This document shows, one piece after another, positions 18,001 to 19,672 of a DNA stretch of 64,000 nucleotides (the stretch's first letter is position 1; each line of letters starts with the position of its first letter). Position numbers: made by a program. This DNA comes from Okamejei kenojei (taxonomy: Eukaryota): positions 16,244,001-16,308,000 of the forward strand of contig CM069151.1 in the NCBI GenBank assembly GCA_035221665.1, in the 5' to 3' direction.

Positions 18001-19672
18001 AGAGTTACAAAGACCTCCTAGGACCTCGTGTCGACCATGCTGCGAGTATGAGTCGAGGGCAAACTCGTCTGAACTCGCGGATTAGGTCGCACAAGTAGGA
18101 CAGCCCCTTCAGGGATAGTAATTACAAAAGTTGATTGGAATAGATTGTAAGCAGGCAAAGGGACATCCAAAAATTGGGATGCTTTTAAAAGTGTGATAGA
18201 GTTCAAGACATGCATGTTCCTGATAGAGCAAGACAGGTAAGAGTCAAGAGTGTTTTATTATCATATGTCCCAGTTTATTATTGTAGCTGGCTTCACCATC
18301 ACCCCCAGCAGTGCATTCCAGGCACTTACTGCACATGGTGTAAACAACTTGCTCGACACATTTCTTTTAAACATTATCCCTCTAATATTTGGTATTTCCA
18401 TCCTGGGAAAAAATATTCTGATTGTCTACCCTATGATTCCCTGACTATTGCTTCACAATACTCACCACATAATCCATTTGCAGATGATCTCCAGTCGACA
18501 CATCTATTGCACATTTGGGCAGCTGCTTCCAAGCTGGAACAGTCAGGTCTTCTGGGATTCGACCCACAGTTGGCACCTTCAAGGCTGGAGCAACCATTTT
18601 CTTCGGAACCGGAATGTGAACCTGGCTCTGATCCGGAATTTGAACCTGGACGTGGACTTGAATGTGAACCTGGCTTTGATCCGGAATTTGAACCTGGACG
18701 TGGACGTGAACGTGAACCTGGCTCTGATCCGGAATTTGAACCTGGACGTGGTCTTGAATGTGAACCTGGCTTTGATCCGGAATTTGAACCTGGACGTGGA
18801 CGTGAACGTGAACCTGGCTCTGGATCTGGCCCTGATCCGGAATTTGAACCTGGACCTGAATCTGAACCTGGACGTGACTCACAACTGCCATCTTCACCAC
18901 TGGAACAATCAGCTTCTGTGGAATTTGCCCCACAGTTGTCGTACTGACATGCCTGGTTGTAGAAGTCGAAATGCTTATTGTTTCTGCAACCACTGAATGA
19001 ACTGTAGAATTGGAACATAAAGTATTTAGTCCTACAATTTAATAAAACCCAAAATGATTTCACATCTAAGAAAGCTTAACATTAATTGCAACAATAAAAT
19101 TACAATGCATATAACAAACGTGAGAAATTCCTTTCTCTGTTGTTTTTGACTAATACTTGTTAAGGGGGAGAATGCTTATTAATTGTATATACTGTATAAT
19201 GGGCAAGATTTCGAGAAATACCAGTTACTAAAATGTTAATCAAAATGTTCTGTATTTTTCACATCTATGACAGTAATGCATTTATTCCCATGCCCACCCC
19301 TAACCTATATCTGGTATGCATTTTCCTAGTAATGCAAGTGCAAATCCCCCAATAATAAAAAATACTGAATTCTGAAATAATCTTGATCATGATCGGATAA
19401 TTTGCCAGTTCAATGGTGCTATTTAATCAGTGACCACCGTATATTTGGTGCAAATAGCCTTGGACAACAGTGAACCATGTGGTCTTTTAAAAATCAACTT
19501 CTGTGCTAAAATATTTAGCAAAGCCATTAATGCACTCAAAATAATGCTCAATGTTTGTATTAATGTTATCCAATGTCATTTTGAAGTATTAACAGGCTAC
19601 CAATGAAGCCAAGAGCAGTCCCACAACAGGAACATGATTCAAACCACATCATATGTGCTGAAGTGGAATTGA

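What the first reader, a model, noticed from the sequence alone, without database searches (positions are those of the whole stretch)
18466..19001. Gly/Ser/Pro/Arg tandem repeat inserted inside the C8-4 domain
Seen in sequence: a normally compact C8 exon is expanded to 536 nt by about 90 aa of 16-aa units, PGS(R/H)SRPRPGSNSGS(K/E). The insert sits among three copies of a CSS(G/L)E motif (ADCSSGEDGSC, NGCSSLEGANC, PDCSSLEAAAQMC), which adds four Cys. It has no Thr, unlike the PTS region, and is rich in Ser-Gly and Arg. Inference: a second, non-PTS disordered loop that could carry Ser-Gly xylosylation/GAG sites, or a cationic RPRP segment affecting gel or adhesive properties. I know of no such insert in mammalian mucin C8 domains.
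Basis: partly seen in the sequence, partly recalled or inferred. Interest (0 to 1): 0.75.

Follow-up and report, generated by a model that had tools for sequence, protein, structure and literature searches.

The report
Ser/Gly repeat loop in ray mucin
A ray-type gel-forming mucin gene carries a short in-frame DNA repeat that swells a normally tiny loop of one folded module into about 96 floppy serine/glycine-rich residues, a real feature shared with two stingrays but of modest importance and unknown function.

Summary
Window 18466-19001 (minus strand) is one 536-nt exon of a MUC2/MUC5-type gel-forming mucin. It has an AG acceptor, a GTGAGT donor and splice phases that fit both neighbouring exons. 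It encodes the second half of the C8 module of the D4 assembly.

Relatives have 4-17 residues between the "C-x-(F/Y)-D-x-C" and "C-S-S-L-E" motifs (179 of 182 motif matches). The window has 130. This stretch is a tandem triplication of a 17-codon unit, which adds four Cys. The linker of the middle copy is expanded by a 24/48/96-nt minisatellite encoding 96 Cys-free, Thr-free residues on the template G-S-x-S-x4.

Two stingray mucins (Hypanus sabinus, Hemitrygon akajei) have the same three-unit architecture at the same site. Their unit sequence (GSGSKEQM type) and lengths differ. The insert is therefore inherited and evolving in concert, not an assembly artefact. Shark, skate, sawfish and electric-ray relatives are compact.

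AlphaFold2 on the stingray D4 gives a confident fold matching the MUC2 C-terminus. Only the insert scores pLDDT below 50.

The glycosaminoglycan and cationic-adhesive ideas remain untested, and net charge is not conserved. An in-frame cryptic intron cannot be excluded without transcripts. This is a new variant of a known kind, of modest interest.

The parts
18466..19001 (-). Exon encoding the second half of C8-4 with the insert (536 nt; one leading base, 178 codons, one trailing base)
   Evidence: AG at 19003-19002 and GTGAGT at 18465-18460. The split codons fit the neighbouring exons and the stingray protein: AA+T at the 5' end, G+AC = Asp at the 3' end. tblastn of P0004 covers 18997-18455, E 5e-27.
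18935..19000 (-). N flank, residues 1-22 (SFSGCRNNKHFDFYNQACQYDN): C8-4 helix region up to the C-x-Y-D-x-C motif
   Evidence: Weak Pfam C8 match, residues 2-33 to model 10-42 of 68, E 0.39. 13 of 22 residues identical to both stingray proteins. Aligns to the C8-4 of 14 relatives.
18884..18934 (-). Unit 1 of the triplicated 17-codon unit (CGANSTEADCSSGEDGS). It keeps the N-S-T sequon of the ancestral loop
   Evidence: 32 of 51 nt identical, ungapped, to unit 3. 0 of 5000 base shuffles and 0 of 5000 codon shuffles reach this.
18569..18883 (-). Unit 2: Cys40, expanded linker (the array), then CSSLEGAN
   Evidence: The segments around module 1 (Cys32) and module 2 (Cys137) share 30 of 42 nt; 0 of 2000 shuffles reach the score.
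18593..18880 (-). Cys-free, Thr-free Ser/Gly/Pro/Arg array (residues 41-136, 96 aa) built on the template G-S-x-S-x4
   Evidence: TRF 48-nt period x4.4 at 92% (18612-18822) and a 24-nt period. The 8-aa template is matched at 30 of 33 positions.
18518..18568 (-). Unit 3 (CGSNPRRPDCSSLEAAA): the copy that continues into the canonical C8 helix
   Evidence: 12 of 17 residues identical to each stingray protein. Compact relatives align here.
18467..18517 (-). C-terminal end of C8-4 (QMCNRCVDWRSSANGLC). It is three residues shorter than relatives between the two Cys before VDWR
   Evidence: Alignments. 13 of 17 and 11 of 17 residues identical to the stingray proteins.
20536..20795 (-). Preceding exon: end of VWD4 and first part of C8-4 (...SCENATVCDVLKG). 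The 5' boundary is not resolved
   Evidence: tblastn of P0004 and P0152 over 20795-20541, 68% identity. GTATGT donor after 20536. In the compact relative P0052 the Pfam C8 match starts at the equivalent CDVITEE.
17254..17323 (-). Next exon: start of TIL4 (DYICPDGFIYKACSRRDHNYCKN)
   Evidence: tblastn at 74% identity to P0004 and P0152.
17025..17131 (-). Second TIL4 exon
   Evidence: Weak Pfam TIL match, E 0.0037. tblastn at 69-71% identity.
26534..26769 (-). First VWD4 exon. It was used as the query for relatives and reads GRRH where MUC2 has GDPH
   Evidence: Pfam VWD, E 9e-14. 82-83% identity to the stingray proteins.

Best explanation
The exon is a genuine coding exon of a batoid MUC2/MUC5-type gel-forming mucin. 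In it, the short loop between the third and fourth helices of the C8 module of D4 has been enlarged by two layers of in-frame tandem duplication.

First, a 17-codon unit (Cys, 8-residue loop, Cys-Ser-Ser-x-Glu-x3) was triplicated. This added two Cys pairs. Second, the 8-residue linker of the middle copy grew into a minisatellite. Its base unit is 24 nt (G-S-x-S-x4), now organised as 48- and 96-nt higher-order units.

The structure was already present in the common ancestor of this species and dasyatid stingrays. It has since evolved by slippage or unequal exchange, so the array interior is homogenised differently in each lineage. The array edges, the extra Cys modules and the reading frame are kept.

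The product is most likely a disordered, strongly hydrophilic, Ser-rich surface loop projecting from an otherwise normal D4 assembly. It would act, if at all, through bulk properties (hydration, steric spacing, Ser-linked modification) rather than through a specific sequence.

Shown: the anatomy, homology, distribution and predicted disorder. Inferred: translation in vivo, surface exposure and any function.
For: Gene context. Pfam on single open segments finds TIL, VWD3, C8-3, three CysD, VWD4, TIL4 and cystine-knot pieces in order on the minus strand.

Exon bounds and phases fit relatives.

The insertion point is inside C8:
- In compact P0052 the Pfam C8 match (670-730, model 2-66 of 68, E 2.6e-9) spans both motifs.
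- The insert-bearing P0004 and P0152 show 4 VWD but only 3 C8 stretches. Compact Mustelus P0153 shows 4 and 4.

Rarity:
- 179 of 182 motif matches are compact, 2 are long and 1 is truncated.
- In alignment A2, 22 of 24 rows have 5-8 residues in the interval. P0004 has 171 and P0152 has 134.

Shared ancestry. P0004 and P0152 are the closest relatives, at 82-86% identity in the VWD4-region exons. They have the same three-unit architecture. Flanks are 56-76% identical, while the array is 37-38 of 96, nearly all Gly/Ser. The G-S-x-S template holds at 30 of 33, 45 of 51 and 37 of 39 positions.

Duplications. Unit 1 versus unit 3 share 32 of 51 nt, with 0 of 5000 shuffles reaching this. Modules 1 and 2 share 30 of 42 nt, 0 of 2000 shuffles.

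Structure. AF2 of P0004 residues 1850-2345 gives mean pLDDT 66.6. The only segment below 50 is 243-405, between helices 228-243 and 412-423. The best PDB fold matches are the MUC2 C-terminus entries 7qcl, 7qcn and 7qcu, E 2e-22 to 2e-20. Sequence search agrees.

Dimer contacts. Section 8 of PMC10082768 names VWCN and VWC1 (with VWD) as the dimer interfaces, not C8.
Against: - No transcript or peptide evidence was available. The stingray proteins are automated gene models.
- Every frame is open across the array, and the repeat copies are too alike to test selection.
- A GTGAGT lies at the very start of the insert. With several downstream AGs it would make in-frame introns.
- AF2 of the window's exon alone was uninformative (mean pLDDT 38). 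Disorder is therefore shown only for the stingray orthologue.
- The pairing of the four extra Cys is unknown, because they lie in the low-confidence segment.
- The shared G-S-x-S template could reflect common DNA descent rather than constraint.
- Orthology of the compact Mustelus and Leucoraja proteins rests on per-exon identities only.
Confidence: 0.65

Rival explanations
1. Functionally neutral passenger. The array is translated but is merely tolerated low-complexity growth in a permissive surface loop. It has no role in mucus properties.
For: Unit sequence, length and net charge differ between species: +4, +7 and -1, and 96, 138 and 104 residues. The copies are nearly identical at DNA level (92%), which indicates recent turnover. 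The same loop is 4-17 residues in 179 of 182 other matches, so no general need for it exists.
Against: The insert, its frame, the G-S-x-S template and the flanking extra Cys modules persist in three species. The two stingray genera keep 86 of 104 aligned array residues.
Confidence: 0.3
2. Exitron. The array, or the array plus the middle Cys module, is removed from some or all transcripts as an internal in-frame intron, so the mature protein has a near-compact C8-4.
For: GTGAGT, the same hexamer as the real donor, lies at 18882 inside the codons for C-E-S. It pairs in frame with AGs at 18790, 18742, 18694, 18646 and 18577, giving introns of 93-306 nt. In all, 291 in-frame GT-AG pairs of at least 70 nt were listed.
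Against: This is consensus matching only. The best internal acceptors have weaker pyrimidine tracts (8-11 of 16) than the real one (12 of 16), and the donor lacks the upstream AG. Two independent stingray gene models keep the array as coding sequence. The Cys modules on both sides of the array are conserved as protein.
Confidence: 0.15
3. Glycosaminoglycan or other Ser-linked acceptor loop. Ser-Gly sites in the array carry xylose-initiated chains or dense O-glycans or phosphate, making D4 a small proteoglycan-like module.
For: The window core has 8 Ser-Gly dipeptides, P0004 has 22 and P0152 has 11. The stingray arrays also have 17 and 13 S-x-E motifs. By my own reading of the sequence, not a separate computation, one S-G-S-G is present and 5-6 of the 8 window sites have an acidic residue within four positions. 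The acceptor consensus (acidic residues near Ser-Gly, SGxG) is recalled knowledge, not a tool result.
Against: The window array is net basic and Pro/Arg-rich, and it has only 1 S-x-E. No predictor or experimental data was available. Thr, the preferred mucin-type acceptor, is absent. Motif content is not conserved between the window and the stingrays.
Confidence: 0.1
4. Assembly artefact or collapsed or expanded repeat.
For: Short tandem arrays can be mis-sized in assemblies. The copy number here could not be checked against reads.
Against: The array is only about 270 nt and carries distinguishing variants. The window has no N. The frame is kept between conserved flanks. Two other species assembled independently have an insert at the same codon position.
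Confidence: 0.03

Closest known systems
D4 assembly (VWD4-C8-TIL) of gel-forming mucins, as solved for the MUC2 C-terminus (PDB 7qcl, 7qcn, 7qcu; PMC10082768)
   Same: Domain order, Cys framework and fold. The stingray orthologue's model matches 7qcl_A at E 2.4e-22. P0052 matches 7qcu_A by sequence at E 5.5e-72.
   Different: The loop between the C-x-(F/Y)-D-x-C and C-S-S-L-E motifs is 130 residues here, against 4-17 in 179 of 182 other matches. There are four extra Cys. VWD4 reads GRRH, not GDPH.
mucin-2-like of Hypanus sabinus (P0004) and the uncharacterized protein of Hemitrygon akajei (P0152), both automated NCBI models
   Same: An insert at the same place, three CSS-type units and the G-S-x-S 8-residue template. 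Identity is 82-86% in the VWD4-region exons.
   Different: Units of the GSGSKE(Q/K)(M/S) type, K/E-rich, with 138 and 104 core residues. Hemitrygon has lost the SSx of the middle module.
Mucin PTS / VNTR domains
   Same: An in-frame coding minisatellite that yields disordered, Ser/Pro-rich sequence and evolves in concert.
   Different: It has no Thr and is about 96 residues long. It is embedded in a folded, disulfide-rich module instead of lying between modules. This gene's own PTS stretches are Thr-rich (EPTETTTVPTTTTESTTSPTTGE).
Ser-Gly repeat acceptor regions of proteoglycans such as serglycin (recalled, not retrieved by any search)
   Same: Repeated Ser-Gly dipeptides.
   Different: There is no pure (SG)n run and few acidic neighbours in the window. 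No hit to any such protein came up in the Pfam, PDB or Atlas searches.

Membership tests
Gel-forming (MUC2/MUC5-type) mucin | D assemblies made of VWD, C8 and TIL modules | tested here: met
   Single open segments hit VWD (E 9e-14, 5.8e-9, 9.5e-7), C8-3 (E 6.4e-14) and TIL (E 2.6e-5) on the minus strand.
Gel-forming (MUC2/MUC5-type) mucin | CysD modules and a Thr-rich PTS between D3 and D4 | tested here: met
   Three Mucin2_WxxW hits, E 2e-13 to 5e-13. Each is followed by a short Thr-rich stretch. No long PTS exon lies in the window.
Gel-forming (MUC2/MUC5-type) mucin | C-terminal cystine knot | tested here: inconclusive
   Pfam Cys_knot scores only E 0.004 on two separate exons, below the cut-off. 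tblastn to the C-terminus of P0004 gives 61-69% identity. No joined sequence was scored.
C8 domain (PF08742) | Pfam score above the gathering cut-off | tested here: not met
   The exon alone scores 11.5 bits, E 0.39, against a cut-off of 23.7. The domain is split over two exons and interrupted. The same module also goes undetected in the full-length stingray proteins, which show 3 C8 stretches for 4 VWD.
C8 domain (PF08742) | Residue-level alignment to a C8-4 that Pfam does recognise, with the Cys framework kept | tested here: met
   Both flanks align to the C8-4 of 14 relatives. The Pfam C8 match of P0052 (670-730) covers both motifs. All 7 framework Cys of the exon equivalent are present, plus 4 extra.
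Mucin PTS domain | High Pro/Thr/Ser content with Thr as a main acceptor | tested here: not met
   S30 and P17 of 93 residues, but T0.
Proteoglycan GAG-attachment region | Ser-Gly sites with flanking acidic residues. Actual xylosylation is the real test | not testable with these tools
   The core has 8 SG dipeptides and is net basic. No predictor or glycoproteomic data was available.
Exitron (intron inside a coding exon) | Internal GT-AG pair with length a multiple of three, used in transcripts | tested here: inconclusive
   In-frame GT-AG candidates exist, for example GTGAGT at 18882 with AG at 18577 (306 nt). No transcript data could be consulted.

The most novel reading that the evidence does not exclude
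The enlarged C8-4 loop is a conserved, ray-specific acceptor platform on D4. It would carry xylose-initiated or keratan-sulfate-type chains, or dense phosphate, on its G-S-x-S units. The C-terminal dimerisation hub of this mucin would then be a part-time proteoglycan, giving ray mucus or jelly distinctive charge, hydration or ion-handling behaviour. The two extra Cys pairs would form a small disulfide-stapled stalk that presents the loop.
Probability: 0.08. Interest if true: 0.7.

Novelty: new variant of a known kind. Interest (0 to 1): 0.35.

Why it matters
D assemblies of gel-forming mucins and von Willebrand factor are among the most rigidly conserved disulfide-rich modules in vertebrates. 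The loop concerned is 4-17 residues in 179 of 182 matches examined.

A lineage in which this loop has carried a roughly 100-140-residue evolving coding minisatellite plus four extra Cys, apparently for a long time, has two uses:
- It shows where the C8 fold tolerates large insertions.
- It gives a natural marker for following concerted evolution of a coding repeat inside a folded domain.

If the loop is modified on Ser, it would be a second, non-PTS glycosylated element placed at the dimerisation end of the polymer. Otherwise it is an ordinary low-complexity expansion.

Tried and rejected
1. Exon versus PDB by sequence. Only compositional hits came back (uL4, SPAG8, eL29; E at least 0.024).

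2. Exon versus the 5.8-billion-protein set, lengths 313-2000. The only hit was a low-complexity match to a kelch protein.

3. Profile of alignment A1 against proteins of 97-389 aa. Two compact shark fragments were found, and no further insert-bearing fragment.

4. Pfam Cornifin hits on several frames of the array, E 4.5e-5 to 1.3e-3 and 19-24 bits against a cut-off of 34.8. These are compositional and were rejected.

5. Plus-strand ORFs over the array have no Pfam family.

6. Alignment A3 seemed to show the exon's N flank matching a conserved segment ahead of the PTS in all relatives. Checking columns showed that MAFFT had scattered the window residues over columns 1-3846, and a motif search found 0 of 257 proteins with such a segment. 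This was an artefact, and A3 was discarded.

7. AF2 of the exon alone with 3 rows gave mean pLDDT 38 and was uninformative.

8. ESM Atlas on the array gave no usable hit.

9. Derivation of the 8-aa array unit from the ancestral 8-aa loop. Only 12 of 24 nt match for either linker against the GSNSGSKP unit. This is suggestive at most and is not claimed.

10. Cationic-adhesive reading. It was rejected as a conserved property because the stingray arrays are K/E polyampholytes.

Full report
OBSERVATION

On the minus strand the window reads ...ttctacAG|TTCATTCAGTGG... at 19003-19001 and ...TTATGTG|GTGAGT at 18466-18460. The finding's coordinates are therefore exactly one 536-nt exon.

Tandem Repeats Finder gives a 48-nt period, 4.4 copies, 92% matches and score 373 at 18612-18822, plus a looser 24-nt period. 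A 21-nt core of the unit occurs 6 times with up to 3 mismatches. All six lie inside 18605-18853, and none is expected in shuffles.

In the frame fixed by the flanks, the exon encodes 178 residues:
- an N flank, SFSGCRNNKHFDFYNQACQYDNCGANSTEADCSSGEDGSC;
- 93 residues (ESRPG...GSE) with S30 G19 P17 R10, no Thr and no Cys;
- a C flank, ENGCSSLEGANCGSNPRRPDCSSLEAAAQMCNRCVDWRSSANGLC.

K/H-type and E/R-type units alternate, giving a 32-residue super-unit. All three minus-strand frames and two plus-strand frames are open over the array, so an open frame is not evidence on its own. The window has no N.

GENE CONTEXT

All searches of the window's gene were made exon by exon, on single open segments.

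This has two costs. Pfam cannot score modules that are split over exons. The window's own full-length protein could not be used as a query.

Pfam places the following in order on the minus strand:

| Module | Window coordinates | Pfam support |
|---|---|---|
| TIL | 60724-60915 | E 2.6e-5 |
| VWD3 | 60494-60694 and 56050-56367 | E 5.8e-9 and 9.5e-7 |
| C8-3 (compact) | 55827-56066 | E 6.4e-14 |
| CysD, three modules | 42599-43291, 36719-37207, 30598-31086 | E 2e-13 to 5e-13 |
| VWD4 | 26507-26785 and 21898-22293 | E 9e-14 and a weak 0.002 |
| TIL4 | 16978-17160 | weak, E 0.0037 |
| Cystine-knot pieces | 8157-8297 and 6795-7010 | E 0.004, below cut-off |

This is a MUC2/MUC5-type gel-forming mucin. 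I do not take the contig for human, because its nearest proteins are from stingrays.

Splice phases agree with the neighbours. The preceding exon ends ...GGAAA|GTATGT, and this exon starts with T. It ends with G, and the next exon starts with AC after an AG. That gives Asp, as in the stingray NGLCD.

IS THE INSERT INSIDE C8-4?

On the exon itself, Pfam C8 scores only E 0.39, with residues 2-33 matching model positions 10-42 of 68. Membership is therefore not shown by score.

It is shown by alignment. In the compact relative P0052 the Pfam C8 match (residues 670-730, model 2-66 of 68, E 2.6e-9) runs from CDVITEE through CRYDNC and CSSLEAAA to CVDWRQSTN. The window's flanks align to those parts in 14 relatives.

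Full-length insert-bearing proteins show 4 VWD but only 3 C8 stretches. Compact Mustelus P0153 shows 4 and 4.

HOW UNUSUAL IS IT?

A search of 1.84 billion representatives with the VWD4 exon, together with a named search, gave 257 proteins. The C-side motif (C..LE...C...C.WR) occurs 182 times in 175 of them:
- 151 matches have the N-side motif 4-9 residues upstream.
- 28 more have the last Cys 0-17 residues upstream.
- 1 is N-terminally truncated.
- 2 have 171 and 134 residues.

The window has 130.

The compact set includes the named elasmobranch relatives from Mustelus, Leucoraja, Amblyraja, Rhinoraja, Pristis, Narcine, Pristiophorus, Scyliorhinus, Cetorhinus, Heterodontus, Chiloscyllium, Hemiscyllium and Stegostoma.

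THE TWO EXCEPTIONS

The two exceptions are P0004 (mucin-2-like, Hypanus sabinus) and P0152 (uncharacterized protein, Hemitrygon akajei). They are also the closest relatives of the window's gene. Identity is 82-86% in the two VWD4-region exons and 68% in the pre-C8 exon. The next best, Mustelus and Leucoraja, reach about 60-67%.

At the same place they read ...CQFDNCEMNGRKNCSSQEDGSCES-[GSGSKE(Q/K)(M/S)]n-GSGSSEDDCSSREGDKCKSNTPKIDCSSLEAAAEMC....

The flanking pieces are 56-76% identical to the window. The array is 37-38 of 96, almost only Gly and Ser. In the 8-residue phase, G1, S2 and S4 are kept at 30 of 33 (window), 45 of 51 (P0004) and 37 of 39 (P0152) template positions. The array edges resemble each other between species: GSRS... 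at the start and GS.S(G)SE(E/D) at the end. The interiors do not.

That pattern is expected of one ancestral array homogenised separately in each lineage. It argues against an assembly artefact.

ANATOMY

The three CSS motifs are not bystanders.
- Residues 23-39 (CGANSTEADCSSGEDGS; 18884-18934) and 145-161 (CGSNPRRPDCSSLEAAA; 18518-18568) share 32 of 51 nt without gaps. None of 5000 base shuffles or 5000 codon shuffles reach this.
- The segments around Cys32 and Cys137 share 30 of 42 nt, with 0 of 2000 shuffles reaching the score.

The region is therefore three tandem copies of a 17-codon unit: Cys, an 8-residue loop, then Cys-Ser-Ser-x-Glu-x3. This is the ancestral C-xLNSTxD-CSSLEAAA segment seen in compact relatives. 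The array occupies the loop of the middle copy. Four Cys are added, 11 against 7.

STRUCTURE

AF2 of P0004 residues 1850-2345 with a 24-row alignment gave mean pLDDT 66.6 and pTM 0.61. The only segment below 50 is 243-405. This is the array with both extra Cys modules, lying between helices 228-243 and 412-423.

The model's best PDB matches are the MUC2 C-terminal structures 7qcl_A, 7qcn_A and 7qcu (E 2.4e-22 to 1.6e-20). Sequence search agrees.

I read section 8 of PMC10082768. It places the dimer contacts of that region in VWCN and VWC1, with VWD, and does not name C8. That a loop from C8-4 need not disturb dimerisation is my inference.

AF2 on the window's exon alone was uninformative (mean pLDDT 38).

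FUNCTION

What is shown is an inherited, in-frame, probably disordered, hydrophilic loop. What it does is inferred.

- Net charge is not conserved (+4, +7, -1), so a cationic role is unlikely to be the conserved one.
- Ser-Gly dipeptides number 8, 22 and 11.
- S-x-E motifs number 1, 17 and 13 (all).

An acceptor role for Ser-linked chains or phosphate therefore remains possible but inconsistent across species. I favour a bulk-property loop (0.65 including the structural description). The neutral-passenger reading is a strong rival.

A cryptic in-frame intron is possible on consensus grounds: GTGAGT at 18882 with AGs at 18790 to 18577.

LITERATURE

I ran six full-text searches: gel-forming mucin with elasmobranch; stingray with mucin and mucus; C8-4 with mucin; gel-forming mucins with VWD, evolution and cartilaginous; C8 domain with mucin, tandem repeat and insertion; and Hypanus sabinus with mucin.

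I saw the listings. I also read passages of PMC4948705 and PMC4989455, and sections 8 and 11 of PMC10082768. None describes an insert inside a mucin C8 module. Supplementary files were not consulted.

LIMITS

- No eukaryotic DNA collection, transcript data or read data was available. The orthologous DNA, expression and copy number therefore stayed unchecked.
- The named homologue search covered only proteins of 1378-4386 aa and the 7999 candidates sharing most words. Searches with the exon covered 313-2000 aa and 97-389 aa.
- The window's own annotated protein was never returned, and its species is unknown.
- P0005, a 131-aa unnamed fragment 89% identical to the VWD4 open segment, also resembles the window's intron-derived flanks. 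It points to a close relative in the collection whose C8-4 exon was not retrieved.
- The listing of cluster members could not be used.

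Noticed in passing
window 28469-44610: Three tandem genomic units of about 6.1 kb, 97.6-98.2% identical to each other. Each carries a CysD exon followed by a short Thr-rich PTS stretch. Weaker copies (80-92%) lie at 45250-47681 and 27962-28426.
   Followed up: partly
window 15728-16234 (-): An open segment in the intron downstream of TIL4 hits the Tc5 transposase DNA-binding domain, HTH_Tnp_Tc5 (E 5.3e-6, above the cut-off). It is probably a pogo/Tc5-type transposon remnant.
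   Followed up: no
window 26534-26769 (-): The VWD4 exon reads WGRRHYRTFDG where MUC2 has the autocatalytic GDPH motif, which is mentioned in PMC10082768 section 8. This mucin therefore lacks that cleavage motif. The stingray protein reads GGRH.
   Followed up: partly
window 18882 (-): A GTGAGT identical to the exon's real donor hexamer lies inside the codons for Cys-Glu-Ser at the very start of the insert. It is in frame with several AGs inside and after the array.
   Followed up: partly
window 18467-18517 (-): The window reads CNR-CVDWR, three residues shorter than all 14 aligned relatives (for example CRRAGSCVDWR and CASVGVCVDWR) between the last two Cys before WR.
   Followed up: no
window 19676-19710 and 17627-17877: There is a run of 35 G in the upstream intron. 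A cluster of 10-22-nt tandem repeats lies in the intron between this exon and the TIL4 exon.
   Followed up: no
window 20536-20795 and 22030-22224 (-): I could not find a canonical acceptor for the pre-C8 exon whose phase fits the GT donor after ...GQCG of the preceding exon. Its 5' boundary stays unresolved. A small extra exon or a non-canonical site is possible.
   Followed up: partly
P0002 (unnamed, 4939 aa): The best-scoring representative has nine VWD stretches and six near-identical CSSLEIYASLC...CVDWR segments about 475 residues apart (one spacing is about 540). Each lacks the third Cys of the C-x-Y-D-x-C motif (CIYDVYRMNDSSVQ). It is a multi-D-assembly protein of another kind.
   Followed up: no
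P0106 (unnamed, 5185 aa), residue 4728: This is the only other relative with a visibly lengthened loop: 17 residues, Ser/Thr-rich (KLSTASPQFSNKTSTED). The loop can therefore grow modestly elsewhere.
   Followed up: no
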